DNA of 64,000 nt from positions 1-64,000 of the forward strand of contig CP000067.1 of the NCBI GenBank assembly GCA_000002445.1, read 5' to 3'. The translations under genes and the position numbers were made by a program. The notes beneath the pieces were generated by a model. It saw only the letters and a program-made list of their open reading frames with translations. It ran no database searches and had not been told where the DNA came from. Every line of letters begins with the position of its first letter. Within the stretch, counting starts at the first letter, position 1. Below are positions 1 to 41,077 of the stretch, piece after piece. The stretch comes from Trypanosoma brucei. Its lineage: Eukaryota.

Positions 1-1681
1 GAATTCCCTATCGCTCACATGTTTTAGTCCTCAGCCACACTCACTTTGCTATTCTGTGGGCTCCTGAAACCAATGCCATGATGTACGGATGGCTTTGTGT
101 TTGGGAACTGCAATAAAAATAAGAATAATAATAATAACTCCTTTCACCAATGAGTTTACTATTGGTTGTAAAAGTGCTCTTGGTGTCACCCCATTATTCT
201 TTTTTGAGTCCCCAGCTGTTGAGAGCCGCTGTATTTTTTAAAAAGAGTGATGCACCGTTTTATTCCCCACCCCTTTCAGGCGACTTTCTCCTGCACGGTT
301 GATACTTTCCCATTGTAGAATGTTTCTCAAGGTGTTTCTTTTGTGAAGCTTTGGTTATGCTATAATTAAAGACCACTCAACTCCATGCTTCCGGGACCTG
401 TTGTTGCATTTATTCCCCTTTAATTGCTGCAAATTTGTTCACTTGACAAGTTGTACTGCAATACTTCACTTGACCATATGTGTAACATCGTGTCTCGTTG
501 CTTTATTTAAAATTCAAAAAGAACACATCAGGTGATATTCTTCTGTTCTTACTTCGTACATTCACGCCTCTTCCCGTCAGTTCGGAAACTCCCACTCAAA
601 CTCACCACTCTGTGAATATTTGTAGTTTCCGTTAGTGATGGGTGTACTGAAGTGGACATGTTTGGCACTTCAAAACTAAGTTTTTTAAACTTACACCTTC
701 CTTCCTGCATACAGCTTCAGTGCGAGAGTAAAAGAATAGTTGAGCACCATGAGAAAACATAAGCCCAAAACATTCTCAACGCAAGCTTTCAATAAAAACA
801 AACACATTAAGATGGTTTCGTGAACACATGCAGTATAGTCCCTAGCAAAGGTATTATTCACACCCAATAAACAACTCAAACAAATAACACCACCATACAT
901 ATCGCAGACATATAAGTTGCACCTGCACAAATAAATAAAGGCTGCTGTAACTCATCATGTGTAAAATATTATGAGCACAAAAACACAAATGTCCTTGATC
1001 TTCCATAAATGTATAGCACAATATTATTTTGCATTATCATCGGAAAAAAAATGTATATTGATATATATATTCAGCCAAAAGTCAAGGGCGTGGTCTGGCC
1101 TATTATAACTGTAAATGCGTGCATGTTCTGTTATTATTGTTTCCCATTGTAAAATAAAGATACTTGCAGATGTGGAGAAACGTCTCCCTTAATGCTTATG
1201 ATGCATCAAATAATTCTCTCGTAAAGAAAGGAGCGAGCAAATGCTCAGTACACGTGTCCCTATTTGTATCTTTCAATGAAGGTTCTCTTGAGTGGAGTAA
1301 AGAAAAAAACAAAGAAAAAGCAAGAAGTATATGATGTAATTGGTGAGACATAATGAAATGACCCAACAAGAGGGAAAGGAAGTTACATGCCTTCACTACA
1401 GTCATACAAATAAAGCCAGACCCTTCACACTCGTTTTACAATGTTCTGTCGTATCGCTCTGCATAAACAAAAAATTACTAATAGGAAATGGAAATGTAAG
1501 AAGAGAGTAAAAAAGTATCAAGTAGCTTGAGGATTATCGACACTCAGCTACGTGGAATGATACGCATCGCAAATTTGTGTTTGAAATGCTCACCATCCTA
1601 ATGAACTTACTCGTGTGTTACTTAATCCTGGGAAATACTTCTCTGTTCGCTCAAGTTACCTGACAACTCTCCTTCCACACC
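1..1681. repeat. RHS 3'-flank dispersed repeat, copy A; near-identical to 33231..34906
   Basis: Direct reading: 1..1681 and 33231..34906 align base for base with only scattered substitutions. Both start at GAATTCCCTATCGCTCACATG, and the shadow ORFs 691..930 and 33920..34159 are identical. Each copy lies immediately 3' of a minus-strand RHS CDS. Confidence 0.9.
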
Positions 1682-3120
1682 CTATGCATTGTTACCACCT
1701 CTATTGTTAACTCCGTTGTTATTGTTACCTCTTGCTTTCAATTCAACGTATAGTGCAGTAATGTGGTTACTAAGAGAAACTGAGAATTGACGCACCTCCT
1801 GTTCCCAAAACCTTTTTTCACCTTCATTATCTTGTCCATCTTCTCTGTTTGTCATGCTGCAAGGTTGTGGTTTCGTAATTTTTTCGCTATCAACCCTTTG
1901 AACATATATTATTTCCCATACCATATCATTGGAAAAATTGTCCCAACCTTGGAAGTAACTTCGCAAATACCTTTTCATCTTCAATAACCCTCCGACGCTG
2001 CAGGGATGTTTATCGGAAATTGTGAATTGTAGTCCCACAAAAGTCTTCTGGTTCTCAACAAAAAAGAACGCATCAACAACTGGGAAACTCCTTGATTGCG
2101 GCTTGTACAATTTCATGTATTGAATTTCAGCTCCAGCAACAATTGAAACATCCTTGGGAACCACAATCGAAGGACCAATGAGTCTTGGTTCTTGCAGCAC
2201 CTGCAGCACACTTTGTGGAATTTGATTCCTAGCAAATGAGAGGCCCTGCAACTCCCTTGCCAACTCAATTAGCGTATCCTCATGCGACAATGCTTCAATG
2301 CCACTCTTCTCAAACAGGTGGGCAGTGAGAGCGCGGTTAGACAGCAAAGCAGACATTGCAGCATATTTATTCAGTAACCAAGGTCTCAGAAAGTCTAAAA
2401 TAGCTTGTCCCGTGTAAGATGAAAGCGGTCTGCAGCGATACGTATCACTCAGAAGCTCCTCCTCCTTCACTCGAACAACCCTCACCAACTTGTGTGATGC
2501 TTTGTCTGTTTGCCACATAGCTGCGTTTTGGAAAATTTCTGCGTAATCATTCATATATGTATCATTCAATTTGTTAATGTATCCCCGAATTAGTGTCCAC
2601 TGACTGTCATACGAAACCAAATTACCTATATGACGGAGCAGTGGACCAACGAAAAGAATTCGACCTTGAATTTCTTGCCATTCTCTTTCAATTTTCTCTT
2701 TCGCAACTGGAGGACTCCAACCGTAAGCAGGAGCAATTTTCCCCCACCTCGATATGTGTATGGCTTCCAAATCCTTCAATGTATCACAGTTTACGTAAAT
2801 ATGTGAGGCGGTGTTTTGCTTGGACCATTCATGGAATTGTCTGACGTCTGGAGAGCTCAAAGCAATACCGGCACAACCAACAGGAGGTTTCACTGGAGCA
2901 GGATGATCCTTGTCCACGTCGAATATAAGGTATCCCTTGATATCCTCACCGCCACTCGATTCTCCGATTATCTGCTTAACAGCGGTGAATGCACTCTTAT
3001 AATTACTGTAAAACGTAACATATCCTGCTCGATCGCCTTTGGGTTTACGAAACACGTACGCCTCGCCCTCCACAACGTATATGATAATCTGAAGTTGACT
3101 CGCTTCATAATGCAGTAGTT

Positions 3121-3132
3121 TGTATAACAGTA
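3121..3132. repeat. Target-site duplication TGTATAACAGTA (left copy) of RIME #1
   Basis: The identical 12-mer is at 3641..3652. Its reverse complement TACTGTTATACA matches what I recall as the canonical RHS insertion hot-spot 12-mer. Confidence 0.85.
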
Positions 3133-3640
3133 TTTTTTTTTTTTTTTAGAATTTTCTTCGTGCCTTCGTGAGAGTTTCCCCCCACTGGCGCGGCCATCAG
3201 CCATCACCGTAGAGCCCTGAAATGCTATCGGTCTGGCGACTGTGGCAGAGTCTCCCTTTTTCATTCATCCTAATACACACCCTCTATAATTTTTGTTGTA
3301 TTTCCGCATATGAACGGAATACAGCAGATGGGGCGAGAAGCCTCCCACCCCGGACTCTCCAAAGGATGCCAATTAGCAATCCTTTTTTGGAGTTCCACAT
3401 CACCGGACAGCAGCATCTTAGTGCGGATGATACTGCTGATGGCACGCTGGCACGTGCCCAGGGACCGACAAATGAAAAACGGTGTCCCAGCAAGACGCTG
3501 CTGATCCCTGTGCTGTATGATGCCGTAGCCGGAGCACAGCAGTGTTCCCCATGAAAGGAACTCTGCTGGCTCTTGGCTTCCCCCGATGATACGGGGTACT
3601 GGACCCTGGCACCACGTTGAGGTGGCCGGCATCGCCAGGG
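3133..3640 (-). mobile_element. RIME: RIME non-LTR retroposon, full length (about 493 bp body plus 15 nt poly(A) at 3133..3147)
   Basis: The reverse complement of 3562..3640 reads CCCTGGCGATGCCGGCCACCTCAACGTGGTGCCAGGGTCCAGTACCCCGTATCATCGGGGGAAGCCAAGAGCCAGCAG. This is the conserved 5' 79-mer of ingi/RIME-type elements, recalled from memory. A poly(T) run on the plus strand at 3133..3147 is the poly(A) tail. The flanks are a 12 bp direct repeat. Confidence 0.85.
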
Positions 3641-3652
3641 TGTATAACAGTA
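3641..3652. repeat. Target-site duplication TGTATAACAGTA (right copy) of RIME #1
   Basis: Identical to 3121..3132 and directly abuts the RIME 5' end at 3640. Confidence 0.85.
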
Positions 3653-4715
3653 GGGATCCCACGGAAAAGGATTTACCAATACCAGGCGTACCAATAACAA
3701 CATGAAACATCGGATTGATAGCCACTTCACCCATAAGCCACTGGTTAAGCCGTTCCTCAACCTTATGCCACACCCTCAGTGTTTCCCTGCGGATATAAAC
3801 ATCACTATTAAAAACGTACCCCACTCCCTTCTTGTGATTAATATCATAATCATTTGGGTTCGCTTTACACGACGTGTATGGCCAACCCACTTGAGATGTG
3901 AGCACAGCAATCTCCAAGTTACCGTGACGAGGAAGTGGTTCGTTCATAGTTTTCGGAACGTGACTTACATCAACTTCCTCCTTTGTCCACATGCGCGGCG
4001 GTCTTCCATCGAACACTTTCAATCCAAGTGGCTCTTCATCACAGCCCGACATCACATAGCTCCATTTCGCATTGCAAATGGAATCATACAATCCTCTCAG
4101 TTCGCTACCATCAGCTGCTAGGACAGCTCGCTTTTCCGCTCTCTTGGCGGCTATCACTGCAGCATCCAACCTTCCCCTCGCCACGGGACCAACAAATTCC
4201 CTTATTTCCACTGTCCCCTTCTCCTCCCACTGACTGAGGGTGCTAATTTCCTTTTCGTCAAGATACCTTGCTTTCCGCTTCATTTCAGAGAATTGGTTAT
4301 ATAATTCTTTATATTCCTCAAACTCATCAAGCCCCCGTATCATTCCTAGAAGCCTTGCATCCAAAATATAATCCTCCGGGCTCTGAACAAAAATGGGCAT
4401 CCTAACATTTTCTGCCTCAGCCACCGCAAAAGTCCCGCCAACGAACTCCTGAATAAAGTCGTTCACTGTCATTTTACGCAGAACCTCATACCGTTGCAGC
4501 AATACATCTTCCAGCAGCACATCCCTCACCTTACTATCCATTGTCCAGTTGGGCCCCCCTTCAGTTCTCTGCCGTATTTGTGGAGGCTGAGCAGCAGCAG
4601 GCGGTGGCGGTACATTTTCATCCCGCGGTCTCCTCATGGGCCCTTCAATATTATCTGCCACTTGTTGGTTTGCATTATTTCCTTGTGGAGCTGCGGGACT
4701 ATTTGCTCTTGACAT

Positions 4716-5330
4716 AACTCCCTTAATATTATTAACTTAACTTCCTTTCCTTTTCTTTTTTCTCTGAAATTATAAATAACTGAAGTAAAATAATAGATAA
4801 GAAAACAATAGCGGGTGAACAGTGTAACACAATATCAAATGTAATATAGCGCGCTAATGTTTACTCACTATAGTTTGTATAATATGATATCATAGTGCAT
4901 TTGGTATTGAGAGGAACAATTTCAAAATATAGCAGCTGTATAAATATTTCCCTTGCTTCATTATTATGTGCTAAATATAATTAATTTCCTGTATTATTCT
5001 TCTTACCGATAACATGCAGACAAAAAAAATTACTGCCTCATACATCTGCGTAAACACTTTCTGTAGGGCTTACAATTATAAAGAGTCAAATTCTATTGAT
5101 TAAAATCAAGTAAAACAATAAACAAAAATATAAGGATATTAATGAAACGAAGAAAAAGAGTATCGGCACAACACATAGATATATACACACATGAATACGC
5201 ACTACACAATTGCTTCTTTGTATATCCTCCCCATTATTAAAATACGTAACATTCACTTGCATTGAATAAACTCATTGAAATATAAATCGCTTATCCCCTC
5301 ATGTATTCACTTACTTCTAAAGGAGAATAT
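4716..5330. repeat. Conserved RHS 5' flank, type A (MSRANSP/MPNNIEG-type N-terminus); related copies at 56543..57160 and 61975..62600
   Basis: Direct reading: long runs of similarity, for example ...ctgaaattataaata.ctgaagtaaa... and ...caatttcaaaatatag.agctgt.taaata.ttcccttgcttcat..attatgtgc.aaatataattaatttcctgtat.... Confidence 0.7.
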
Positions 5331-6149
5331 TAAATAATGTCTGTAGGACAGGTAAAAAACTGATAGTCTTTTTGCATCAGATAACCAGAGAGTATTTCTG
5401 TTTACTTTCATAATAAACAAAAACATCATTTTGCCTTCAGTTAAAATAAAATTTAATTACTTGCCTCCTTACTGTTCACAACTGTCAACAACTAATTCAG
5501 CCCCAGAAATTCACATGAATCTTATGTGCCATCGTTGCTTGATGAATTCACACACCTTTTATGATGGTGATTATACAACATATTGTAAAAAATTGGAATA
5601 AAATTAACACAATTAATTGAGGAAACCGTAAAAGATTATCATAACATATCTTTTATTTTCCCTCCCTTCATTTACGCAAATTAAATATGTAATGATACAA
5701 TTCCCTTTCAGTACGTGTCCACACCTATTGTATCATCATTGTAAGTTTCCTACTGCTCATATACGCGAAGCTACTGGAATAACAAAAACATAAAACAACA
5801 CATCTAAACAACTAAAAAATATATAATAAATAAAGGTAATAAAGAGAATAAGCGTGAACTGACAGATAATAAAATGAAACACGTCTCGCACTTTCCTTAT
5901 AAATATTCAATAGTTGGTATGTTACAAATAAAAACAATTACACATTATAGAAAGGAAGGGATATAATTACATTATACACCTGCATGTGGATATGTAACAG
6001 TGAGTCATAGTAGAAATAAATTGCCTAAACACAATAGTTATGGAAGATAAAATAATTCAAAATATCAATAATATTATTCTATCAACATTCCCTTCCTTCT
6101 CCATTAAGTTTTCAATGGTTTCAAATAATAATTCACATAATTCCATACA

Positions 6150-6900
6150 TATGTTACGATGGGCATTGCATGCAGTACAATTGAAAGAAAGTGTAACTCA
6201 TATAACATTTTCAAAAAAAAAGGTATTGAATGGTTGTTTGCTACCATCAATTACATTTCCAATGCCTAATTACACTTTTATATGCATGAAGGAAGTTACT
6301 GATGATAACTTTGACATGCTCGAGAATCCATAACACAAAGCGACTGCTTCATGCAATTAAAAATATAAATATAAATAACATCCGAATTCATTTACTGACA
6401 GATGAGTGCAATCCTTTCATCCAAACTTCATAGCTGTAAACATAAACTTGATGCTGCCAATAGGAAATAATCCCGCATAAATATTGAGTATCTGAAAATG
6501 ATAGCAACGGGTTTCCATTTTTGAAATATATGCATAAACTACATGAGGTATATGAAGCCATATTGGTGAAGTGTCACTACGCATGTTGCAATTTACTATC
6601 AAAAGTGTCTGCCTTATTTTATTTCTTTTGTTACTGTAACTCATGAGCATTATTCATTATTCTTTACAATACAACTGTAAGTCATTTTGCATTTTTACAT
6701 ATTTCCTTATTCTCTCATACTGGAAGTATTCCACATATGAGATTCCTCAATATCGTTCACAAAATAAAAATAATTTTATTTACTTCTGCATTCAGTTTCT
6801 TGTGCAGCAGTGTGTACACTCATCATCCATAAAGTTTTTAATTTGCCAAATACATCATTACGAAACTATTTTCATACCCACACATGCACAAACAAACCGT
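6150..6900. repeat. Dispersed repeat about 750 bp; a second copy lies at 37570..38300, upstream of another RHS gene
   Basis: Direct reading: ...gcattgcatgcagtacaat..aaag.aagtgtaactcatataacattttcaaaaaaaaaggtattgaatggttgtttgctaccatcaattacatttcc... continues for roughly 750 bp in both copies with few differences. Confidence 0.8.
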
Positions 6901-9900
6901 TGGGACAATATCTTTGAGGAATTTCCTTCACTATATTTGCAGTTCAGCAGTGATTAAAATACACTTTTTGTATAATTCAACACATGGTGGAATTGCAAAG
7001 AAATGTGATGGTACTTACAATCAATAAGTTCCCAATTTTCCTCACATGGTCTCCTTTCATGCCTTTACATCCTTATATAATTCACAGATAATTACTGCAA
7101 TATCCTTCACATGCTTTCAGGATTCCATATGTCACAATACAAATTATATATATATATATTTGCTTCTACATTAATTTGGACATAATATTGCTTAACATAT
7201 AAATTATCACAAACCTATGATATTACACTCTTCCTAAGAATAATAGAAACAAATTATTTCTATTTTGCATCATTACATGAAGCTTTGGAAAAGGAAAAAA
7301 AAGAATCAAACAAAGGGTAATGTAAAGAACACAGTTTTTTAATACAGATTATAACTTGTTTGTGAATTTCAGATGCAAACACAAAATGTTCAAACAGGGA
7401 AACAGTAAAGGATGTTACTGGTGATGTAAGCACAAATTAACCAAAAATAGAAACATAAATAAAATTGAAACTTATAAAAACACAAAAATATATGACACAA
7501 ATATTTACCACATATTATAATTCGCCACCCTCACACTTAAATTACAAAGGGTACATAACGCGCATATGTGGTAAAACTAATACAACTCGAATATACGTAT
7601 GTGCCATCTTCTTAACATAATCATTCTAATATTTAGTATGTATGTCTGTGTGTGTCTGTGTGTGTATAGAAATGATGATATGTAATCGGCAGTCCCTTGA
7701 CTCGGAATGCGGTATTAACATGTCTCAGATGTTAAGCATTCTTGCACTATAGGGGAAGTCATTCTCCTTTTTTTCCTTTTTGCGCAAACAAAAAATAAAA
7801 AGAAGAATACAGGGGTTTGTAGCGGATAACTAGCTTTTTGAATCGTAGCAATATATTATGAAGCATGTACCACAGTCTACTCAGTATTTTTTTTATTTTT
7901 TTGACTCTATCTATTTTTATCCATGTTTATAAACGATACTTTTTGTGAAAGTTATAACAAGAAACTAACTCGTATTTTTACTCACCGTCTTCCTTATTTC
8001 TAAATTTCGCAATTGTACCATGGCAAAATATCATTCTTGTTTCCTATTTTATTGAGGAGTTACTCTCACAGAAGATAGCAAGGTGAAAATACTCAAGACC
8101 ACACCAACAGAGGCCAGACATCCTTAAAAAAAAAAAGACGAACAAAGGAGTTAACTACGCAACCCTTCTTACAAATGAGCGTCTGTCAATGTGCAAGAAA
8201 AAACAATGGCTCTTCAACTGCATGCAACACGAGAAACGGTATCAGCGGCTTCAATCCCACAGTTAAAGCCACTTGACGAAACACTCAGCATACGAAACCT
8301 TTGCAAAGCAATGTATTGGTTATTTAAAGAAAAAGAAAAAAATGTATTCCTTCACGTGCCGTTTCAACAAACTGCTAGCCGAGAACTAAGAGTATCAACA
8401 CACACGCATGTGATATCTACGCGTCGAATATTTGCTGCCCAGCTGACTCCAAACTCACAAAGAGGGAACCAGACGTAACCACTTACAGCCCAGCCGCTAG
8501 TGTCCTTTAAGTGCATACAAATACACAACAGCAATCATTGTCACCCCACTAACTTTAGGTATCATTTAATGCGTATTTAACAAGCATGATGCCCGACTCC
8601 AAATGTGAAAGGCACTCGTCACGCACCCGCCCCGCCAATTCCACAGGATGGTGGAGGCAAGGCAGCAAAGGAGCGGCGCAGCGCTGTTAAATCGAATAGC
8701 TGCGCATCGGTTGCATTGAGTTTGTGGAACGCAGAGAAACCACCAGTTGAGTTTAGAGTAAGTGATGCCTCTCACAGAGCCGTGGCGGCAGAATATGATG
8801 TAGACGTCGCGATTCTTTTTTTTTTCTTTTGCTGCAACCTCCCGAAATGCCTTGAAAGGCCAAGCACTACCGTCACCCCCAGAGCAAAAACGTTGGGGAG
8901 AAAAGACGAAACAATGCGTGGGTTGTGGCGCTGAAACCGCAATTACCAACTGGCAAGGTGGATGGACCGCGACATGTGAGCGAGCAAGGGAGGCATCGCT
9001 GTTTGTGGAATGTGGGGAAATGTAAGAAAAGAGACCACTAAATATGATAACGATGTTAGAGCAACGAATATGAGCAGCGTCCAATTCCGTTTAGAAACCC
9101 TGCCCGGAATTTTTGTCCGTAAAACAACAACTAGCAGCACCGACGAATTCGAGGCAGAGGATTGCGGGATGCCAACCAAAAAAAAAACCAACAACAGGCC
9201 ACAACCACACCGAATCAGAAAGTCCATGTAAAAGTAACCAAATACTCGCAGTTCAAACGCTCAAATGTTGGATACGCAGCAGGTGACACGACGGAAGGAA
9301 TGTTATCCGGCGCTTGGAAGCATGTCACCACCGCAACGACTCCTCAGAAACTGGGCAACTTCAAGTGTGGAGTGGCGGCTTGCACATGAACGTAGTGAGT
9401 GTCAGAAAAGGGGTGAAAGGCACAGCGGGAGGAATGGCAAAGCAAAAAATGCAGGGAGGCAGTGCCAAGGCTCCCGAGCAGACATCCGCTAAGACCTACG
9501 GCATATGACATGTGTGGTATGGCGGCACGGCACAGGAGGAACTGTTGCAACGAATCAGACATGGCTGTTATAGGCCCGTCACAGCCTTCAGAGACTTTTC
9601 CAAACGAAAGGAAAGAGCGCAATGCGACAGAGTGATGCTGACGTGTGCAGAAGTCTCGAAGCATTGTATCAGCGAGGTCTGTGGTGACTAAGAGTCAGAG
9701 ATGGATACATGGTTAGAAGGGTGGTGGATCCTGTGAATAGTTGAAAGTAGGGTGCCTGTACTTTATTTCTCATATACTCGCGTGCTCCGTATACAAAATA
9801 TAAATGAGAAATGGATCTCACAAACGCGCCAGCAAAGTGACTCTGTTCCTTTGCAAGGTCCAGACAATTCGTACTAAGACTCTTAAAGCTATTGGACCGA

Positions 9901-13689: not shown

Positions 13690-16565
13690 ACGAAGCACAG
13701 CAAGCTCCACCACCTCCCCAATTACCTTTACGACGCCAACACTTTTCCTGTTGCTGTTAGTGTTACTTCAACTTTATCAAATATGTGTTCTTTTTAACGC
13801 AGATGATGGTGGGAGAGTTACAGTGAAGGCAATATCTCTGTTATACAGTCGAAAATGGAACCTACAAGTTATCAATGACGTGAATGCCGGTTTCAATGCC
13901 TCCCTGGTTGCTCGGAACTGGACGGTGGCACTCGGAGTGAATGTTGAAGTTGCCCGCTCTCCCTCATACGTCATCAATTTGGTCCAGTTTCTGAATGATT
14001 GCCCGAAGGCACTAAATGGCGATGACGCGAACAAGCTGTGCAATACATTAGAAGGGAACCAACTTGTTGGCTTCGGTTCCATGACTGAGTATCAACAGGG
14101 CATGAGGGATATCTGCCGCATCTTTGCTTCCTGCTCCTTGAGGCCACTGGCGAACTTATTACCCCAGTACGTTATGCGGTGAGTCACTTACGTGTGCCAA
14201 AGCAGGGTTTCATGTATCTTGATGGGCTCCCGGGAGGTAGTGAGGCATATAATCAGGCAGTGGATTTCATATAGCGCATGGGGTACAGTTTCTGTTGTGT
14301 TTTCACGGTGGAAGACAAAGCGGGTGGCCAAGGTGGATCACCTGAGGAATCCGACGCTGTATGGGATGACTTTGCTGGGGGAAATCCGCAGGCTGTGACT
14401 ATGTTTGCCGCCATGAAGCCTGATGCCAAAAAAATTCTCGTGAGGTTGGTGTCTGATCCGCGTACGGAAGATACGTTCGTGCTAACTCCGATCTTATTGC
14501 AGAAATCAATCGTGAGCATCTGGAAGGAGACATTGGAGGAAGCGAATGTTCCGTTTGTTCCCCATCGTGTGATTCAGACGGGGTCAAATCCTCTCGCTGA
14601 GGAAGATTATATCGATGCGGTAAAACGCTTTCAGACTGAAATGAGGAACTATTTGACAGAATACAGGGAGTGGAGTGACTTCAATGATGCGGATCACTTT
14701 CTAAAGAGTGACGCGGATGGGGAGCTGACGATCAATGGCTGGATTACTGGAGAGGTGTTGGCGCGGGCACTGCGTAGTCATGGCTGGATGAAAAATCGCA
14801 CAGCCGTCATTGAGTCGCCGTTACGTGATTGATGGCATCGTGATCGGTGATTTTGGAGGTGAGTGCGATAGCTTTACCACTGCAAATGATGCCACTTGCC
14901 GCTGCAACCGTGGCAGGAAGAACGTCTACATGAGGGAGATTGCTGAAAATTACCGCCTGCAACCGCTTGTTGGCAGGCATATTATGACAACTTCCTTACA
15001 GTGTTATATCGATCCCTCATTCCTATAGACACCACTCATCGGCCTCACCGTTGATATGGAAGATCACGAAGAGCTTCTGAGAGAGGTTCCACACAGTTTG
15101 AAACTGGTGTGTCCACCACGACCTCATCTGGGAAAGCTGGCGAGATGAACAGTTTCTTCCTTCAGAAGGTTGCCACGGATATGCAGAAGGTTTCCGACGG
15201 TCTCAACACATTGTGACGGGAAAGGATAGTCGCTGCTGTGTTCGGCATCGTGACAAAAGCGGTGCTCGGTCTGATATTCATTGACCCTATGACACCAATC
15301 CCCCATCTGAACAGTTTCAGCAGGAATGTGATCCACTTGTCCCTAACAATGGAACAACAGCTATGCATGTTAGCGAGCTCCCTCTCCAGCATTCGTGCTG
15401 ACTTCCACCAATCGCGTTGTAAGGGGCGGTGAGGCGTCCGCTTTCATTGATGCACTAAGAAAGACACTGCTCACATTTGGCTTGAACCTCAGCTCTACCG
15501 TTGTGTTGACTGCAGGGGACTCTGTTGGAGAGTATCTTTCGAAAAGTGGTAGCACTTTTATCATTGGACTTGCTGTTGATGGCATTGTGGCAATTGAAGA
15601 GCATCTACGTATCCGCAACAAGGCGCGCGTATTTGTCCAGTTCTCTGACGTTGCGCTGCTGTACAATGAGTTTGTGCAAGCCTTCGACAATAGCGATGGC
15701 ACCAAGCACCTTTTGCTCGCAACAAGTTTGCTTTGCTACCCAGACATCAACGCGACATCGTAGACTGTGCAACGGTTCCACGAGGCGGTACGTGAGGTGG
15801 AAAAGTGGACGCTGCTGTCGCTACTGGGTTTCGCCACGGGTAGACTAATACAAGAGGATCTGCAAAACATGGAAAGGGTAACGTCCGGCCTGCTGGTCGA
15901 CCTTTTCTTCAACCAAACAGTAATCACCGTTGATGGCATGCATTATATGGGCCGTACAAACATTACGATTGCATAACCAACGTTGTTGTTACCACTGATG
16001 ACTGCGTGACAAACTTCGGTGCTACGGATATAAGTCTGTGTGTGTGTGTGTGTGATCAGTGGCACGTGCGCTACGGTCAGATGCACCAATACTACAGAAT
16101 CCGATGTCGCCGTCGTTGGTGTCCGGTGTCCCCAACGGTAATGCCCTCAACCCCGCACAACTTGCTGGTGTGGTTGGTGACTCTTTATTCGTTGTGGCTC
16201 TCGCAATATGTCTAAGCTTGCTTGCGTGATTCCCTCTCCGCGGCACCCGTGATAACGACAGCGCGCCGAAGGAGCCAACGGACCCTGTGACACTAATATT
16301 TACTGACATTGAGAGCAGCACTGCGTTGTGGGCTGCACACCCTCACCTGATGCCTGATGCCGTTGCGACACATCACCGTCTGAGTCGTTCACTGATTGGG
16401 AGGTATAAGTGCTACGAGGTGAAAACTGTTGGGGATTTGTTCACAATAGTGAGCAAGAGTCCCTTCGCTGCCGTCCACCTCGCACAGAAACTGCAGCTGC
16501 GTTTCTTGCATCATTCTTTCCGAAGGGGCTGCACAATTTCTGACAGCGCCGAATGGACAAATGCA
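13690..16565 (+). pseudogene. GRESAG4: Receptor-type adenylate cyclase (GRESAG4/ESAG4 family) pseudogene: extracellular domain, TM segment and the first ~90 aa of the catalytic domain, with multiple frameshifts
   Basis: Translation of 16240..16540 gives RDNDSAPKEPTDPVTLIFTDIESSTALWAAHPHLMPDAVATHHRLSRSLIGRYKCYEVKTVGDLFTIVSKSPFAAVHLAQKLQLRFLHH. This is the hallmark start of the T. brucei adenylate cyclase catalytic domain (established family knowledge). It is preceded by a hydrophobic TM-like LLVWLVTLYSLWL at about 16150..16215. Upstream ORFs (13751.., 14278.., 14810.., 15395.., 15767..) sit in different frames and read as extracellular-domain pieces. The ORF stops at 16565, so the rest of the catalytic domain is absent. 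Confidence 0.75.
16037..16054. repeat. (TG)9 microsatellite
   Basis: gtgtgtgtgtgtgtgtg read directly; similar short (TG)n runs at 7640..7675 and (AT)n runs at 25070..25090. Confidence 0.9.
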
Positions 16566-18595
16566 TAATATTACGGAGCGCTGCTTACGCACGCAGCTTA
16601 TATAATGTCACATGCGTTGTGATTTGTAGAGGGGAGTGGGCCACCAGAAATTGGGCCATTTAATGTCAATAAGTTTTTACCGCTTGTTGGAGCCGTAATT
16701 CCCCGCACTTAACCTTTTCGAACCGAGGAGTTGGTAAAAGACGGCCAATCAACGGTATTGTCGACACCGTGGCCATCAGTACGGGATTTTACATACGGTA
16801 ACGAAGCGTGGGCATATGTTTTTCTTTAAACGTCATTTTTTAAATTTTTCTGTACATTGTTGCTGCCACTTCTATGAAGTATGGCCAGAATGTCAGAGTA
16901 GTGCATTTGTGTGCAAAACGAAGAAAATAATACTCCCCTTGTTTTTCTTTCCCTCTTGGGTTGTATGAAAAGAGGGGGCTCCTGTTTGTAGGATGACAAG
17001 AGCTGTTTTGTTTCTTTCCTCAAAAAAAATTACATGCTCCATAGTTGCTCCAATATTCCCATCCCTTCATTGGAAAATGACCCGACGGCTCCGTCCATGT
17101 GAGTGAAGCGGTGTCCCTGATATTTGCCCTGATGCTTTTTCTTTTTTCCACCGTGAAACCTGCACTGCACTGCACTTGCGTTCCCTCATCCCCTCTTACA
17201 GTTATCCGTTTCACTTCCCCTGTTGAGGAATGCGTATTTCCAACCGCGCGAGATATCAAACAGTAAATCTGTCGGACAAACAAAAGGCTAAGAAATTCGT
17301 CACATAAACTTATGAGCTTTCACCACTGAGGCACGCACGCTCACCAACACCAACAAAGTCAAGCAAAAGGCGCTGTATATTAATACTCAATGGCGCCATA
17401 ATGTTCCCTTTCGTGTTCCCTTTTCCTTTTTCCTTCCGTTGGGGTTACACAACACTTGTGGGAACCCGCTTCACTTCCTCCTTTTCCAATTATGAAGGTA
17501 ACTGTGTTTTGTTTGCCACACTTCCGCTTGTTATTTCTCCAACTGGTTTCACTCCCAGAAGTCGCGTGTACACCACTTGTGGAGGAAATATTACATTAGG
17601 CAAAACCAACTATGAAAAAAATGGCAATACATTCCAAAATATTCCCTCATCATTGCAGAACTCATGAAAGGAATCATGGTTACTGCCGCCAGGTTAAGCA
17701 AAGACCGAAAGGCTTTTGAAATGTGTTTTCGAATCGAATGCATCACTGGTATTTCTTTAACATGCAAACACAACACAAATCACGGCATGCACAAACACGC
17801 ATTCCGGGCTTCTTATAGAGATATTTCAATACCTGAAAAAGGGACCGGGACGCAAAGCTTGGGAATGGAATTTCCCCGCCCGTTACGCTGATTATCTAAG
17901 ACATTCAATCAACACATTTCCGCCTGTCCACAGTTAATCGGAAACCGTGGTGCCCATATGTCTCCCTAATTACTGTTGTTCCTTCAGTTTTCACAGTAGA
18001 TGTTTCAATTGGTTTCTGCGGCCGAGGTAAATAAAGCGCATGTGTCATATCCGGGAGGTGTTTCCATGTGTCTTCGCTTTCCGTTTTGTCACTGCGTTTG
18101 GGCTCACGCAATGACATTAATTGAAATTTCAGGCCAGTACCATAGATGGGTGGCTCGTGGAGAGAATGAAGATTGGGATTATTCTAACAATTTTGTGGTT
18201 GCGTGTGTCGTGCTTTTGGAAAATATTGCAACCAATGAAAGGGAAGGCAAGTGTCACCTTACTTTCCATGCTGCGACATCAATGCATAAGAATTATATGC
18301 TAGTTGCTCTGCAAGGGAAGGTCGTGAAGGCGAAGGTTAGCTTCCGGTTTAGGGAAGTGCAAAGACTTCCTGATACTACTGTCAGAAACTACTGTTGTTG
18401 CGTGCTTCAGGCACTGGGTCAGTAATTCATAAACACAACAACGAGAATAAAATTAATCCCTTGTGGCTGCTAAGCGTGTAAGCAACTGAAAATAATAAAC
18501 AGTATATTTTTGCCACACTTTATTGATTTCTATATATATACAAAACAACCTCATTACATTTATCATTTCTTTTGTGCCCAAAGACTGCTGAATGA

Positions 18596-20155
18596 ATGTT
18601 AGGATTACTGACCATAACACATTTTGGCATGCACCTCAATTACTTCCTTATAACACTTCCCCCCCCTCGTTTGATTCATCGCTTAGCTCTATTATTAAAA
18701 AAGAAAAAGCATTTCGTCAACACTCAGCACCTCAAGGAATCGGAAATGGGAACTACAATGTCAGGAAACCAAGGAAGAAAGCGACAGTGCAGCTCATCTC
18801 CTGAGCAGTCAGAAGCTTTAAAGGAATCATCAACTACTGGACAAAATAAACTCACCACCGTTACAATCACCGAAGAGACGCGTGACGCCAGTAATGATGA
18901 AACTGTGATATCATTACTGAATGAGCATGAGAAATTGATTAAACAAACGACACGGCTGGAAAGCAGTGTGAAGGCACTTAAATGTTTCATGAGTAATCTC
19001 ACAGCTATGAGTGGCGAAAGGCAAGGTGGTGTGTGTGATGGCACCGAATGCATACATAGAGTAACATTATATAATGCTGCTGATAATGCCTTCAGTGACG
19101 AAGGACTATGTGAAGGTGCTCTTTCCTCACTCTGTGGCCGTATTCAAGCTAAGAAATTAACCATTGCGCTATCAAAGGGTTGGAAATTTAACTCACGACA
19201 AGTCAGTAAGCTAAAGCAGTTAGAAGAGTTACGCATTGAATATCCGCGTGGAAAACTTGTGAATATGATATCTTTGAAGAGACTGCACATGTTGAAAAGG
19301 CTTTGTCTCAGGAGCAACAATATTGACAACAATGACGCCCGTCACTTATTCAATATTGGAACATTGGAAGAGTTGGCTATTACTGACACCATGCAACTGA
19401 CAAATATCAGAGGAATCTCTCGCTTGACTAACCTGATGTGTCTTGATTTAAATTCCACAAACATTGACGACAACTGTGTGAGGAGAATATGTGCATGTGT
19501 TAAACTGTCCAAATTGAGTGTATCCGAATGCAACAATATCACAGACGCGACACCAATTTCACAGCTTGAAGCACTGGAAGAGTTGAATCTAAACAGCTGT
19601 TACCACATAACGAAGGGAATAGGAACACTTGGCATGTTGTTACGATTGCGTATACTTGATTTGAGTGGTGTTCCTGTGGAAGATAATTGTCTGAAGGATT
19701 TGTGTGACTGTGGATCGCTTGAAAGGTTGAACATTTCTTATTGTATTCAGCTGAAAGATATCAATCCACTCTCCAATGCCACTGCTATTGAGGAATTGAA
19801 CCTTAACGGTTGTCGCCGAATCACACGGGGGATAGGCGTTGTGTGGGCATTACCAAAGCTCCGTGTATTGCACATGAAGGATGTGCACCTGAGTGAGCCA
19901 TCTCTCGATTCAGTTGGGACTGGTGGATCACTTGTAAAGGTCAGTCTTGATAACTGCGCAGGCTTTGGTGATATGACACTCTTATCCAGCATTGTTACAC
20001 TCGAGGAGCTGAATATTCAAAAATGTGCTGGCATCATTAGTGATGTGGGTTGCCTTGGTACACTACCATACCTGCGTGTGCTTAACATAAAGGAGGCACA
20101 CATCTTGTCCCTTGACTTTATTGGTATTGGTGCCTCGAAATCCCTTTACAGTTAA
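18596..20155 (+). CDS. LRRP: Leucine-rich repeat protein (ESAG8-like/LRRP family), N-terminal segment. It is probably the 5' part of one gene that continues in 20116..22941.
   Basis: Repeated about 24-aa LRR units with the recurring motif L..LEELNL..C..IT....LS.L. ATG codons occur at 18596, 18629 and 18746. A polypyrimidine tract at 18640..18700 suggests the real start may be the ATG at 18746 (MGTTMSGNQ...). Confidence 0.7.
   Translation: MLGLLTITHFGMHLNYFLITLPPPRLIHRLALLLKKKKHFVNTQHLKESEMGTTMSGNQGRKRQCSSSPEQSEALKESSTTGQNKLTTVTITEETRDASNDETVISLLNEHEKLIKQTTRLESSVKALKCFMSNLTAMSGERQGGVCDGTECIHRVTLYNAADNAFSDEGLCEGALSSLCGRIQAKKLTIALSKGWKFNSRQVSKLKQLEELRIEYPRGKLVNMISLKRLHMLKRLCLRSNNIDNNDARHLFNIGTLEELAITDTMQLTNIRGISRLTNLMCLDLNSTNIDDNCVRRICACVKLSKLSVSECNNITDATPISQLEALEELNLNSCYHITKGIGTLGMLLRLRILDLSGVPVEDNCLKDLCDCGSLERLNISYCIQLKDINPLSNATAIEELNLNGCRRITRGIGVVWALPKLRVLHMKDVHLSEPSLDSVGTGGSLVKVSLDNCAGFGDMTLLSSIVTLEELNIQKCAGIISDVGCLGTLPYLRVLNIKEAHILSLDFIGIGASKSLYS
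18640..18700 (+). promoter_or_regulatory. Polypyrimidine tract plus AG: candidate trans-splice acceptor region for the LRRP gene
   Basis: cttccttataacacttcccccccctcgtttgattc followed by AG dinucleotides, upstream of the ATG at 18746. Trypanosomatid mRNAs are trans-spliced downstream of polyY tracts (established knowledge). This is inference only. Confidence 0.25.
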
Positions 20156-27787: not shown

Positions 27788-28255
27788 TAATGGACAACGA
27801 AACTCAACCATTGGGAATGAGGATGGTTGATGGAACGCGTGGTGATGATGTAATGTGGAAGAATGAAGAACTTAATCTTGTCCCTAAAATTGAGGAAGCT
27901 GTTGAGAAGAAACCAGAACGCAGGGAAGAAGTTGAAGCAATGGTTCTAACATCTCAAATGTGGTGATAATAAGCTAAGTTTACCAACGGAAGTAACAAAA
28001 ACATATTCATCCATAGAGAAGAGCTCCGTGTATGGAATGTTGTAAGGAATGGAATTGAATTATGGCGTACACAGCGTGCTTTACCGAGATGTCTTTATTT
28101 TCCACGAGCATACGCTGCCATTGTTGACCCTGGGATTGGTAAATCTCAGAATTTTGGTTTTTTCATCCTTTACAAGTTATTGCATTGCGATGCGGAAGAG
28201 TTGCCTATTGTTGCGTATTTCTGCGGTGTAGCCGCATATGTATTTGAAACCAACT
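27788..28255 (+). pseudogene. RHS: RHS gene fragment (about aa 58-215 of a 49436-type RHS) on the opposite strand to all other RHS copies, truncated at both ends and frameshifted
   Basis: Translation MDNETQPLGMRMVDGTRGDDVMWKNEELNLVPKIEEAVEKKPERREEVEAMVLTSQMW and then, in another frame, ...IFIHREELRVWNVVRNGIELWRTQRALPRCLYFPRAYAAIVDPGIGKSQNFGFFILYKLLHCDAEELPIVAYFCGVAAYVFE. This parallels IIDDGTQPLGMTLVDG...FIRREELRVWNVVRSGIELWRTQRVIPGCLYLPRSYVAIGNPGIGKSQNLGSFILYKLLHYDAEELPVVAYFRGVAAYIFE of the ORF 49436..51463. Confidence 0.75.
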
Positions 28256-32902: not shown

Positions 32903-33230
32903 CGCATGGCTGGGTGTAATTCAGGTCACTACTCATATTGCAACTGGATACCACTCTGGACGGAACTTCCTGCAAGATATTATCGAATCCCCATTACAAC
33001 ATGTGTTGTGTTTGTTTGATGGGTTCACCTGTTACCGTATTGTAAAGACGGACCCAAAAACAACATCCGCGTCGGTGTGTCCAATAGAAATGATGGAAGA
33101 ACTCTCCTGTACTGAAATGGCAATGCTCTTTGCTAGTCGTAAACTTACAACAACAAATAGAAGTGTAGTTGCATCCTATGCTGGCATGCGGTAATGATTT
33201 TCTGCCAATGCATAAAAACTCCACATGATG

Positions 33231-34906: not shown

Positions 34907-36946
34907 CTATGCATTGTTACCACCTCTATTGTTAACTCCATTGTTATTGTTACCTCTTACTTGCAATTCAACGTATAGTGCAGTAATGTGGTTACTAAGA
35001 GAAACTGAGAATTGACGCACTTTCTCTCTCCAAAATCTTTCCTCAACCTTATTATTTTGTCCTTCACCTTCGATTGTCCCCTCACAACATTGTGGCTTCG
35101 TAATTTTTTCACTGTCAACCCTTTGGACATATATTATTTCCCATACCATATCATTGGAAAAATTGTCCCAATGTTTGAAGTAACTTCGCAAATACTTCTT
35201 CATCTTAAATAACCCACTGGTGCTGCAGTATTGTTTATCGGAAATTGTGAATTGTAGTCCCACAAAAGTCTTCTGGTTCTCAACAAAAAAAAACGCATCA
35301 ACAACTGGGAAATTTCCTGATTGCGGCTTGCACAAAATCATGTATTGAATTTCAGTTCCAGCTACAATTGGAACATCCTCAGGAACCACAATCGAAGGAC
35401 CAATGAGTCTTGGTTCTTGCAGCACCTGCAGCACACTTTGTGGAATTTGATCCTCAGAAAGTGAGAGGCCCCGTAACTCCTTTGCCAGCTCAATTAGTGC
35501 ATCCTCATGTGACAATACTTCAATGCCACTCTGCTTGAAACGATAAGCAGCAAGGGTACGGTTAGACAGCAGTTCAGATACTAAAGCAGACTTTTCCTGT
35601 ATAAAAGGTTTCAGTCGATCTGAAATAGCTTCCCCCGTGCAAGATGAAAGTGGCTTGCAGCGATACGTATCACACAGGAGAAAATCCTCTTCCTTCACTC
35701 GAACAACCATCACCAACTTGTGTGATGCTTCATGTGTTTCCCAAAAGGCTCGGTTTCGAATAACGGAACGAAAATACTCAGTATCTCCACGTTCAAGTTT
35801 CAAAATAGTATTTTGCATTGCTTGAGCACGCTTTTCGTACGAACGTAAATCAACAATGTGACAAAGCAGTGGACCAACGATACGAATGCGAGCTTGAATT
35901 TCTTGCCATTCTCTTTCAATTTTCTCTTTCGCATCTGAAGGACTCCACTTGTAAGCAGGAGCAATTTTCCCCCACCTCGATATGTGTATGGCTTCCAAAT
36001 CCTTCAATGTGTCACAGTTTATGTAAATATGTGTGGCGCCGTTTTGCTTGGACCATTCATGGAATTGTCTGGCGTCTGGAAAACTCAAAGCAATACCGGA
36101 AAAATCAACAGGTGGTTTCACTGGAGCATGATGGTCCTTGTCCACGACGAATATAAGGTATCCCTTGATATCCTCTGCGCCACATGAATCTCTGACTATA
36201 TGGTCAATATATGTTGAAGCTTGCTCATAATTACTGTAAAACGTAACATATCCTGCTCGACCGCCTTTGGGTTTATGAAACACATACGCCTTACCCCTCA
36301 CAACGTATATGATAATCTGAAGTTGACTCGATTCATAATGCAGTAGTTTGTATAACAGAAAGGGTGCTGTGGAAAACGATTTACCAATACCAGGTGTACC
36401 AATAAGAACATGAAACATCGGGTTGACAGTCACTTCACCCATAAGCCACTTGTTAAGCCGTTCCTCAACCTTATGCCACACCCTCAGTGTTTCCCTGCGG
36501 ATATAAACATCACTTTTAAAAACATACTCCACACCCTTCTTGTGATTGATATCATAATCTTTTTCTTGTGGTTGGAAAGACGTGTATGGCCAACCCACTT
36601 GAGATGTGAGCACAGCAATCTCCAAGTTACCGTGACGAGGAAGAGGTTCGTTCATAGTTTCCAGAGTGTGACTGACATCAACCTCCTCCTTCGTCCACAT
36701 GCGCGGTGGCCTTCCATCGAACACTTTCATTCCAAGTGGCTCTTCATTATAACCCGACATTACATAGCTCCACGTCGCATTATAAATGTAATCGTATAAT
36801 TTCTCTTCGAGAGACTTGCCCTTTCCGGTTTCTGATGGGTTCTCGTTTTCTCGGCTGGCTTGTCTCTTCATTGGGCGGTACGCACCATTCAACCATCCAT
36901 TTAAAATATTCCGAGTATCTCCTACACTACCGCCGTTCTGATTCAT
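34907..36946 (-). CDS. RHS: RHS (retrotransposon hot spot) protein, apparently intact (679 aa); type B N-terminus (MNQNGGS...) joined to a core close to that of the 1682..4715 copy
   Basis: Uninterrupted ORF with the P-loop GTPGIGKSFS followed by an intact, uninserted hot-spot 12-mer (tgtataacag at 36346..36355). The conserved C-terminus ...HITALYVELQVRGNNNNGVNNRGGNNA is shared with the 1682.. copy. Confidence 0.85.
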   Translation of the reverse strand: MNQNGGSVGDTRNILNGWLNGAYRPMKRQASRENENPSETGKGKSLEEKLYDYIYNATWSYVMSGYNEEPLGMKVFDGRPPRMWTKEEVDVSHTLETMNEPLPRHGNLEIAVLTSQVGWPYTSFQPQEKDYDINHKKGVEYVFKSDVYIRRETLRVWHKVEERLNKWLMGEVTVNPMFHVLIGTPGIGKSFSTAPFLLYKLLHYESSQLQIIIYVVRGKAYVFHKPKGGRAGYVTFYSNYEQASTYIDHIVRDSCGAEDIKGYLIFVVDKDHHAPVKPPVDFSGIALSFPDARQFHEWSKQNGATHIYINCDTLKDLEAIHISRWGKIAPAYKWSPSDAKEKIEREWQEIQARIRIVGPLLCHIVDLRSYEKRAQAMQNTILKLERGDTEYFRSVIRNRAFWETHEASHKLVMVVRVKEEDFLLCDTYRCKPLSSCTGEAISDRLKPFIQEKSALVSELLSNRTLAAYRFKQSGIEVLSHEDALIELAKELRGLSLSEDQIPQSVLQVLQEPRLIGPSIVVPEDVPIVAGTEIQYMILCKPQSGNFPVVDAFFFVENQKTFVGLQFTISDKQYCSTSGLFKMKKYLRSYFKHWDNFSNDMVWEIIYVQRVDSEKITKPQCCEGTIEGEGQNNKVEERFWREKVRQFSVSLSNHITALYVELQVRGNNNNGVNNRGGNNA

Positions 36947-37390: not shown

Positions 37391-37569
37391 GCATACAAAA
37401 TAGTAAGTGCCTTACTTACCTTACAAAATTAAAAAAATACTAAAAGTAACGATAAATATAAAACATTATCTTCACAATTCAAAACAGACGCGTATTAAGC
37501 AAGAGAAAATAATGCATATAATCTCATACATATGTGACGATGAGTTTTACATATGATAATACAAATGTG

Positions 37570-40556: not shown

Positions 40557-40567
40557 TTGGAGCAGGA
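40557..40567. repeat. Target-site duplication TTGGAGCAGGA (left copy) of RIME #2
   Basis: The identical 11-mer is at 41078..41088. Confidence 0.8.
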
Positions 40568-41077
40568 TTTTTTTTTAGAATTTTCTTCGTGCCTTCGTGA
40601 GAGTTTCCCCCCACTGGCGCGGCCATCAGCCATCACCGTAGAGCCCTGAGATGCTATCGGTCTGGCGACTGTGGCAGAGTCTCCCTTTTTTATTCATCCT
40701 AACACACCCTCTATAATTTTTGTTGTATTTCCGCATATGAACGGAATACAGCAGATGGGGCGAGAAGCCTCCCACCCTGGACTCTCCCAAAGATGCCAAT
40801 TGGCAATCCTTTTTTGGAGGTCCACATCACCGGACAGCAGCATCTTAGTGCGGATGATACTGCTGATGGCACGCTGGCACGTGCCCAGGGACCGACAAAT
40901 GAAAAACGGTGTCCCAGCAAGACGCTGCTGATCCCTGTGCTGTATGATGCCGTAGCCGGAGCACAGCAGTGTTCCCCATGAAAGGAACGCTGCTGGCTCT
41001 TGGCTTCCCCCGATGATACGGGGTACTGGACCCTGGCACCACGTTGAGGTGGCCGGCATCGCCAGGGTTGGAGCAGG
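40568..41077 (-). mobile_element. RIME: RIME retroposon, full length (body about 501 bp plus 9 nt poly(A) at 40568..40576)
   Basis: About 97% identical to RIME #1 along its whole length. It ends with the same CCCTGGCGATGCCGGCCACCTCAACGTGG 5' 79-mer (reverse complement at 41049..41077). It is flanked by an 11 bp direct repeat. Confidence 0.85.

What the first reader, a model, noticed from the sequence alone, without database searches (positions are those of the whole stretch)
3121..3652. RIME inserted exactly at the RHS hot-spot 12-mer; the RHS gene is otherwise intact
The RIME (3133..3640) is flanked by a perfect 12 bp duplication TGTATAACAGTA, whose reverse complement TACTGTTATACA encodes L-L-Y-K just after the P-loop. 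Both duplicate copies sit in the same codon phase in the N-part (frame of 4715) and the C-part (frame of 3073). Removing the element plus one duplicate would therefore give a continuous ORF of about 841 aa (…GIGKSFSVGSLLLYKLLHYEASQLQIIIYVVEGEAYVF…). Intact flanks plus an intact poly(A) suggest a recent insertion, and this gene is in effect a reporter of the pre-insertion allele.
Basis: partly seen in the sequence, partly recalled or inferred. Interest (0 to 1): 0.55.

Follow-up and report, generated by a model that had tools for sequence, protein, structure and literature searches.

The report
RIME retroposon splitting an RHS1 gene
A 508-bp RIME mobile element sits at the well-known insertion hot spot of a Trypanosoma brucei RHS gene, and removing it in silico restores an 837-codon reading frame; this is a clean example of the feature the gene family is named after, not a new one.

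Summary
TGTATAACAGTA occurs exactly at 3121-3132 and 3641-3652. It brackets a 508-nt element (3133-3640, minus-strand sense) that ends in a 15-A tail. Deleting 3133-3652 joins the two halves into one open frame of 837 aa, not 841. That frame runs from ATG 4715 to the stop at 1682-1684 and carries the full RHS architecture (DUF7578, RHS_N, RHSP P-loop).

The element is a genuine RIME. Its nt 1-248 and 255-503 match the two ends of a 5,255-bp ingi that encodes an APE-type endonuclease. A 90%-identical paralogous segment in the same window (33230-36800) is the empty site, with a single copy of the 12-mer.

A second RIME in the window and one in T. b. gambiense lie at the same codon position and in the same orientation. 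The source is T. brucei; the intact RHS ORF at 34907-36946 is 100% identical to a TREU927 protein.

All of this matches the published definition of the RHS family and the fixed 12-bp duplication of ingi/RIME. "Recent" is plausible but only bounded: an open frame is compatible with up to about 2% neutral divergence. The family is visibly mosaic, so gene conversion may have refreshed the flanks.

Verdict: already known, low interest.

The parts
3653..4715 (-). N-terminal part of the split RHS1-type gene: ATG at 4715, codons 1-354 plus one base. Contains DUF7578, RHS_N and the start of the RHSP P-loop domain.
   Evidence: tblastn mapping.
3669..3692 (-). P-loop (ATP/GTP-binding) motif GTPGIGKS, aa 342-349. 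Five codons (FSVGS) separate it from the duplicated target.
   Evidence: PMC7563717, summarising Bringaud 2002, places the ATP/GTP-binding motif just upstream of the hot spot.
3641..3652 (-). Copy of the 12-bp target-site duplication on the 5' side of the element (TACTGTTATACA in sense).
3133..3640 (-). RIME non-autonomous retroposon, 508 nt, in the same orientation as the RHS gene. Its 5' end is CCCTGGCGATGCC... and its A15 tail is at 3133-3147. GC content is 53% against 40% for the window.
   Evidence: 98% identical to a second copy at 40568-41067; three-copy alignment and GC content; nt 1-248 and 255-503 match the two ends of a 5,255-bp ingi in L002.
3121..3132 (-). Copy of the 12-bp target-site duplication on the 3' side of the element, directly after the poly(A) tail.
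1682..3120 (-). C-terminal part of the split RHS1-type gene, with the stop codon at 1682-1684. It holds the rest of the RHSP domain and an RHS1-like C-terminus.
3270..4715 (-). The ORF as it actually stands, 481 aa: RHS residues 1-358 read through into 123 RIME-encoded codons. This is the same frame as the RIME's own ATG at 3630-3632, and it stops at a TAG inside the RIME.
36349..36360 (-). Paralogous empty site: a single copy of the 12-mer (TGTATAACAGAA, one mismatch) inside the intact 679-aa RHS gene at 34907-36946.
40568..41067 (-). Second RIME, at the same codon position and in the same orientation, in a different and decayed RHS pseudogene (39193-42021). It is flanked by TTGGAGCAGGA (11 nt) at 40557-40567 and 41068-41078.

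Best explanation
A RIME, the 0.5-kb internally deleted non-autonomous partner of the T. brucei ingi LINE, retrotransposed into an RHS1-subfamily gene at the family's canonical hot spot.

Shown here:
- The element is built from the ingi 5' and 3' ends and carries a poly(A) tail.
- It is flanked by a perfect 12-bp duplication.
- A paralogous empty site carries one copy of the 12-mer.
- Three independent RIMEs occupy the same position and orientation, across two RHS lineages and two subspecies.
- Excision restores an 837-aa ORF.

Inferred from the established target-primed reverse transcription model and the ingi/RIME literature:
- The ingi-encoded APE-type endonuclease/reverse transcriptase acted in trans on RIME RNA.
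- It first nicked the window's + strand just 3' of TGTATAACAGTA. In the filled site, that 3'-OH at 3132 is directly extended by T15, the cDNA of the poly(A) tail.
- The second nick fell 12 nt away on the other strand, and fill-in produced the duplication.
- The site is 'hot' because the endonuclease recognises sequence at and just upstream of the duplication. That sequence encodes the conserved residues after the P-loop, so every RHS paralogue offers the same strand-specific target. This would also fix the orientation.

Consequence: the gene is now a pseudogene. At most it encodes a 481-aa chimera of RHS 1-358 plus a 123-aa RIME-encoded tail.

The insertion is younger than a typical RIME, or its flanks have been refreshed by gene conversion, because no stop or frameshift has accumulated in 2,511 nt.
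For: - Exact 12-mers at the element borders.
- An 837-aa fused ORF without stops, with the predicted junction peptide.
- Pfam DUF7578, RHS_N and RHSP at E = 1e-19 to 2e-117.
- Best database hits are T. brucei RHS/RHS1 proteins at 92%, 81% and 79% identity. The neighbouring intact RHS is 100% identical to a TREU927 protein.
- Filled-versus-empty comparison within the window: 1-3130 matches 33230-36358, and 3641-4092 matches 36349-36800. The two alignments overlap only in the duplicated bases.
- RIME identity: 98% to two other copies. The halves match the ends of a 5,255-bp element with an Exo_endo_phos_2 ORF. That agrees with the published ingi structure of 5.25 kb, a 4.75-kb core flanked by RIME halves (PMC3447711).
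- A 12-bp duplication is the conserved hallmark of Tbingi/TbRIME (PMC3820030).
- The hot spot generating split RHS pseudogenes is the published definition of the family (PMC7563717).
- The same site and orientation occur in RHS pseudogene 2 of the window and in T. b. gambiense L001.
Against: Nothing contradicts the core reading. The caveats concern only how recent the insertion is.
- The RIME has 7 private substitutions (about 1.4%) relative to the two other copies examined.
- The 12-mer is conserved coding sequence shared by other RHS1 genes, so identical flanks carry less information than they would at a random site.
- The protein is a patchwork of paralogues.
- No Rfam family, including HDV-like ribozymes, matched the element's 5' end. 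The ribozyme-release step proposed in the literature is therefore not supported by my own data.
Confidence: 0.95

Rival explanations
1. The insertion is old, but both halves have been kept open by repeated gene conversion from intact RHS1 paralogues. On this reading the intact frame and identical 12-mers do not date the insertion.
For: - The fused protein is a clear mosaic. It is nearly identical to P0001 except for patches at aa 65-128 and 376-415, and the second patch is identical to RHS1 Q8T9M3 (P0002).
- There are long tracts of 100% amino-acid identity to a gene on another chromosome-sized contig.
- Recombination and conversion are described as pervasive in RHS families (PMC7563717).
- RIME1 carries 7 private substitutions.
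Against: - The neighbouring RIME-bearing RHS pseudogene in the same cluster has decayed, with stops and frameshifts, so conversion does not generally rescue such copies.
- The A15 tail is still pure.
- Whether the conversion tracts arose before or after the insertion cannot be told.
Confidence: 0.2
2. The locus is a chimera made by homologous recombination through the RIMEs of two different RIME-bearing RHS1 pseudogenes. The two halves were never one gene, and the 'pre-insertion allele' is fictitious.
For: - This mechanism is proposed in the literature for RHS pseudogenes (PMC7563717 citing Bringaud 2002).
- The T. b. gambiense locus L001 looks like such a case. Its 5' copy is TACTGTTATACA and its 3' copy is TTCTGTTATACA, and its halves are 75% and 66% identical to the fused protein.
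- The 12-mer is shared among paralogues, so matching flanks do not exclude this reading.
Against: - The flanks match 12/12.
- Both halves have the same nearest relative, P0001 (89% for the N half, 96% for the C half), with no mismatch to P0001 between aa 321 and 375, which spans the junction.
- P0002 is also mismatch-free from aa 341 to 422.
Confidence: 0.08
3. Assembly artefact: a RIME repeat was wrongly placed into an intact RHS gene when this repetitive cluster was assembled.
For: RHS clusters and RIMEs are highly repetitive.
Against: - A misjoin would not create a precise 12-bp duplication in the correct position and orientation next to a poly(A) tail.
- The same architecture occurs independently in another assembly.
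Confidence: 0.02

Closest known systems
T. brucei RHS (retrotransposon hot spot) pseudogenes carrying RIME/ingi at the hot spot (Bringaud et al. 2002, Eukaryot Cell 1:137; summarised in PMC7563717)
   Same: Same gene family (Pfam RHSP and RHS_N). The insertion point lies just after the ATP/GTP-binding motif, the element type is the same, and the result is two separated RHS halves flanking the retroelement.
   Different: Nothing in kind. This copy is simply an unusually clean one: perfect 12/12 duplication, pure A15 tail, and both halves free of stops. The second copy in the window has decayed.
ingi/RIME autonomous/non-autonomous retroposon pair with a fixed 12-bp target-site duplication and relative site specificity (Bringaud et al. 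2004, Mol Biol Evol 21:520; cited in PMC3820030 and PMC2323293)
   Same: About 0.5 kb long, made of the ingi ends, with a poly(A) tail, a 12-bp duplication, and high GC content relative to the genome.
   Different: I did not have the published upstream consensus in text form, so its match here was not scored. The second RIME in the window shows only an 11-nt unambiguous duplication.
L1Tc/NARTc insertions in T. cruzi RHS genes
   Same: A homologous gene family and a homologous retroposon clade, with the same 12-bp duplication (PMC3820030; PMC1874656).
   Different: Different species and element subclade: ingi6 for L1Tc/NARTc versus ingi4 for Tbingi/TbRIME. NARTc is a 3' deletion derivative, whereas RIME is an internal deletion.
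Site-specific non-LTR elements in conserved multicopy genes (R1/R2 in rDNA)
   Same: Analogy only: an endonuclease-directed, orientation-fixed insertion into a conserved coding or functional sequence present in many copies.
   Different: R2 uses a restriction-like endonuclease with absolute specificity. ingi uses an APE-type endonuclease with only relative specificity and inserts at many other genomic sites.

Membership tests
[quoted passage not shown] | About 0.5 kb long and non-coding for RT/endonuclease | tested here: met
   508 nt including the tail. Its only ORF is about 120 codons, and its homologues are short 'T. brucei-specific/unlikely' proteins without Pfam domains.
[quoted passage not shown] | Composed of the 5' and 3' roughly 250 bp of the 5.25-kb ingi | tested here: met
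   RIME nt 1-248 match L002 7993-8240 (98%) and nt 255-503 match L002 13002-13247 (92%), a span of 5,255 bp with an Exo_endo_phos_2 ORF inside. This agrees with PMC3447711.
[quoted passage not shown] | 3' poly(A) tail | tested here: met
   A15 at 3133-3147, read on the minus strand.
[quoted passage not shown] | 12-bp target-site duplication | tested here: met
   12/12 identical at 3121-3132 and 3641-3652. A single copy is present in the paralogous empty site. The hallmark is stated in PMC3820030.
[quoted passage not shown] | Conserved 77-79-bp 5' signature (Pr77 / HDV-like ribozyme region) | tested here: inconclusive
   The first 78 nt are identical in the three RIME copies, and the first 248 nt are 98% identical to the ingi 5' end in L002. 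No reference signature sequence was available in text, and Rfam gave no hit in 2900-3900.
[quoted passage not shown] | Conserved endonuclease-recognition pattern upstream of the 5' duplication | not tested
   The consensus is given only in figures of papers that I could not read as text. The two RIMEs in the window share GTxGGxTCxx before the duplication, but these sites are homologous coding sequence.
RHS protein family, RHS1 subfamily | RHS P-loop domain with an ATP/GTP-binding motif just upstream of the hot spot | tested here: met
   PF07999 at E = 2e-117 over aa 339-652. GTPGIGKS lies at aa 342-349, and the duplication starts in codon 355.
RHS protein family, RHS1 subfamily | Conserved N-terminal region (RHS_N, DUF7578) | tested here: met
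   PF20445 at E = 2.7e-55 and PF24466 at E = 9.5e-19.
RHS protein family, RHS1 subfamily | Subfamily-specific C-terminal domain | tested here: met
   Full-length matches to proteins named RHS1: 81% to Q8T9M3 and 79% to 'RHS1, putative'. The C half is 96% identical to P0001.
RHS protein family, RHS1 subfamily | Expressed, mainly nuclear protein | not testable with these tools
   Needs expression and localisation data. The interrupted copy can encode at most a 481-aa chimera.

The most novel reading that the evidence does not exclude
The insertion is very recent and still polymorphic among T. brucei strains. That would make this locus direct evidence for ongoing ingi-driven RIME mobilisation. 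The in-frame RHS(1-358)-RIME(123 aa) chimera would be expressed as a truncated P-loop-only RHS variant with a dominant or regulatory role, for example as a source of RHS/RIME siRNAs.
Probability: 0.1. Interest if true: 0.3.

Novelty: already known. Interest (0 to 1): 0.08.

Why it matters
It matters little beyond annotation. The locus is a clean example of target-primed insertion of RIME at the RHS hot spot, with a filled site and a paralogous empty site in one 64-kb window. It could serve as a marker for presence/absence typing between T. brucei strains. The reconstructed 837-aa sequence adds one more RHS1 variant to the catalogue. It does not open a new question: the hot spot, the 12-bp duplication and the resulting split pseudogenes have been described since 2002-2004.

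Tried and rejected
- Exact-sequence look-ups of P0001, P0006 and the 481-aa chimeric ORF, to fetch the source contig or orthologous loci in other strains: none on record. A presence/absence test across strains was therefore not possible.
- Bringaud 2002 (PMC118050) is not held. Its content is cited only through later papers and, where marked, from memory.
- Full-text search for the RIME 5' sequence found nothing.
- A protein search with the RIME-encoded peptide returned only unnamed small ORFs, with no protein named 'ingi'. The loci behind two of them did give the ingi structure needed.
- The ingi in L002 has no matching duplication, so it was not useful for a target-site consensus.
- A recombination breakpoint at the hot spot was considered and rejected. 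Identity to P0001 and to P0002 is continuous across the junction.

Full report
**1. Checking the observation**

- The + strand reads ...gcagtagtt TGTATAACAGTA T15 ag aattttcttcg ... cgccaggg TGTATAACAGTA gggatccc....
- A pattern search finds the 12-mer exactly at 3121-3132 and 3641-3652. The only other hit with up to one mismatch is TGTATAACAGAA at 36349-36360. The chance expectation for the whole window is 0.48.
- Deleting 3133-3652 and translating the minus strand from the ATG at 4715 gives an uninterrupted 837-aa ORF ending at the stop 1682-1684. The junction reads GTPGIGKSFSVGSLLLYKLLHYEASQLQIIIYVVEGEAYVF.
Twelve is a multiple of three, so the frame is preserved either way.
- As the sequence stands, the ATG at 4715 opens a 481-aa ORF (3270-4715). 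It leaves RHS after residue 358 and runs 123 codons into the element, in the frame of the element's own ATG.

**2. What the parts are**

- The fused protein matches Pfam DUF7578 (aa 79-140), RHS_N (210-333) and the RHS P-loop domain (339-652, E = 2e-117).
- Its best database relatives are T. brucei RHS proteins. The top hit is 92% identical to an 829-aa TREU927 protein (P0001). It is 81% and 79% identical to proteins named RHS1.
- The neighbouring intact ORF at 34907-36946 is 100% identical to an annotated TREU927 RHS protein on a 1.59-Mb contig. The window therefore comes from a T. brucei RHS cluster.
- The element is 53% GC in a 40% GC window. It is 98% identical to a second copy at 40568-41067 and to a copy in T. 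b. gambiense.
- Its nt 1-248 and 255-503 match the two ends of a 5,255-bp element in T. b. equiperdum that carries an Exo_endo_phos_2 (APE-type endonuclease) ORF.
- That is the published relationship between RIME and ingi: 5.25 kb, made of a 4.75-kb core flanked by RIME halves (PMC3447711; PMC2323293).

**3. Is the 12-mer a target-site duplication?**

- A self-comparison of the window shows that 1-3130 is paralogous to 33230-36358 (91.5%) and 3641-4092 is paralogous to 36349-36800 (88.5%).
- The two alignments stop at the RIME borders and overlap only in the duplicated bases.
- In the alignment, the intact paralogue has one copy (TTCTGTTATACA in sense) exactly where the N and C parts of the split gene overlap.
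- This is a filled-site versus empty-site pair, so the 12-mer is a genuine duplication.
- A fixed 12-bp duplication is the recognised hallmark of Tbingi/TbRIME (PMC3820030).

**4. The hot spot**

- The P-loop GTPGIGKS is at aa 342-349. Five codons (FSVGS) follow, and the duplication begins at the second base of codon 355.
- The second RIME in the window interrupts a different, only about 35%-identical RHS gene. It sits at the same codon position and in the same orientation, flanked by TTGGAGCAGGA.
- The T. b. gambiense locus L001 has a RIME at the same place again.
- This is what the literature describes. RHS genes are named for a hot spot just downstream of the ATP/GTP-binding motif, where ingi/RIME insert and leave two separated RHS halves (PMC7563717 summarising Bringaud 2002).
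- From memory of the 2002 abstract, 16 of the 52 RHS copies first described carried a RIME and/or ingi at exactly the same relative position.

**5. Mechanism**

- Shown: the structure, the duplication, the fixed position and orientation, and the restoration of the ORF.
- Inferred from the target-primed reverse transcription model and the ingi/RIME papers: the ingi-encoded endonuclease/RT acts in trans on RIME RNA.
- The first nick is on the window's + strand immediately 3' of TGTATAACAGTA. In the filled site the 3' end at 3132 is directly continued by T15, the cDNA of the poly(A) tail.
- The second nick is 12 nt away on the minus strand, after ...TATACA. That end is continued by the RIME 5' end CCCTGGCG.
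- Fill-in of the 12-nt stagger gives the duplication.
- The endonuclease recognition sequence is reported to lie upstream of the duplication (PMC3820030). Here that is conserved coding sequence after the P-loop. This plausibly explains why many paralogues are hit at the same base and in one orientation.
- The literature also proposes that the first 77 nt of this element clade act as an HDV-like ribozyme that frees the element RNA from a host co-transcript (PMC4035085). I could not support that here, because Rfam gives no hit.

**6. How recent is the insertion?**

- In favour of a young insertion: 12/12 identical flanks, a pure A15 tail, and no stop or frameshift in 2,511 nt.
- By contrast, the other RIME-bearing RHS in the window has several stops and frameshifts.
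- A substitution-only simulation gives P(ORF still open) = 0.62 at 0.5% divergence, 0.38 at 1%, 0.15 at 2% and 0.02 at 4%.
- The insertion is therefore younger than the median RIME, which is 4% from consensus (PMC2323293). It need not be very recent.
- RIME1 has 7 private substitutions relative to the two other copies. Five of them cluster at nt 248-290, which may reflect a different source copy rather than age.
- Two further caveats apply. First, the 12-mer is conserved coding sequence; TACTGTTATACA also flanks the T. b. gambiense RIME on its 5' side, where the 3' copy is TTCTGTTATACA.
- Second, the fused protein is a mosaic. It is essentially P0001 except for patches at aa 65-128 and 376-415, and the second patch is identical to RHS1 Q8T9M3. 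Gene conversion is therefore active in this family and could have refreshed the flanks.
- There is no breakpoint at the junction itself. Identity to P0001 is unbroken over aa 321-375 and to P0002 over aa 341-422. This argues against a chimera made by recombination through the RIME.
- No protein closer than 92% exists in the database. The reconstructed sequence is a distinct RHS1 variant, not a copy of an annotated gene.

**7. Comparison with what is known, and verdict**

Every defining feature of RIME and of the RHS family that I could test was met (see the membership table). Two features were left open. The upstream endonuclease consensus was not tested, and the 5' signature test was inconclusive. 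The configuration is the published, name-giving property of the RHS family. The only distinctive point is how well preserved this copy is. Novelty: already known. Interest: low.

Noticed in passing
window 39193-42021 (RIME at 40568-41067): A second RHS pseudogene is split by a RIME at the same codon position and in the same orientation. Its unambiguous duplication is only 11 nt (TTGGAGCAGGA). Unlike the first, its RHS halves carry several stops and frameshifts.
   Followed up: yes
window 1-6896 vs 33230-38318: Segmental paralogy at about 88-95% identity. It covers the RHS gene, about 1.7 kb downstream of it and an upstream block (6159-6896 matches 37579-38318). The intact copy lacks the first ~208 codons (the DUF7578 region) of the RIME-bearing copy.
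   Followed up: partly
window 52598-58565 vs 58026-64000: A tandem duplication with a period of about 5.4 kb, 97% identical. Each unit carries a 565-aa RHS ORF (54845-56542 and 60277-61974) whose RHSP domain match stops at profile position 248 of 312, so these copies may be C-terminally truncated.
   Followed up: no
window 18000-22941 (+): A DUF1181 ORF (18000-18425) is followed by two adjacent leucine-rich-repeat ORFs in different frames (18596-20155 and 20185-22941). This is probably one LRR gene broken by a frameshift. This gene block is on the opposite strand to the RHS genes.
   Followed up: no
window 14278-14832 (+): A 184-aa ORF matching only the C-terminal part of the adenylate-cyclase periplasmic-binding-like domain (PF25495, E = 2e-28). 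It is likely a receptor adenylate cyclase gene fragment or pseudogene.
   Followed up: no
window 27691-28245 (+): A degenerate RHS fragment on the opposite strand, with in-frame stops. Its P-loop and hot spot are uninterrupted (...GIGKSQNFGFFILYKLLH...).
   Followed up: partly
L001 8980-9600 (T. b. gambiense FN554974.1): A RIME sits at the RHS hot spot with non-identical flanks: TACTGTTATACA on the 5' side and TTCTGTTATACA on the 3' side. Its halves differ in relatedness to the fused protein (75% vs 66%). This is compatible with the published idea of chimeric pseudogenes made by recombination. The annotated protein P0011 reads into the RIME in a different frame than the DNA I fetched would give.
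   Followed up: partly
window 3351-3393 (RIME nt 248-290): Five of the seven substitutions private to this RIME cluster within 43 nt at the junction of the two ingi-derived halves. This suggests a variant source copy or a small conversion tract rather than random decay.
   Followed up: no
fused protein aa 65-128 and 376-415 (window 4332-4523 and 2951-3070): Two sharply bounded patches differ from the otherwise near-identical paralogue P0001. The second patch is 100% identical to RHS1 Q8T9M3. These look like gene-conversion tracts among RHS1 genes.
   Followed up: partly
L002 7993-13247 (T. b. equiperdum CM010679.1): A full-length 5,255-bp ingi whose 12 bp on either side do not match (GCCAGTTTTACT vs TTTCCTTTCCAG). 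An inverted RIME 3' half lies just upstream at 7317-7548. This suggests rearrangement between elements.
   Followed up: no
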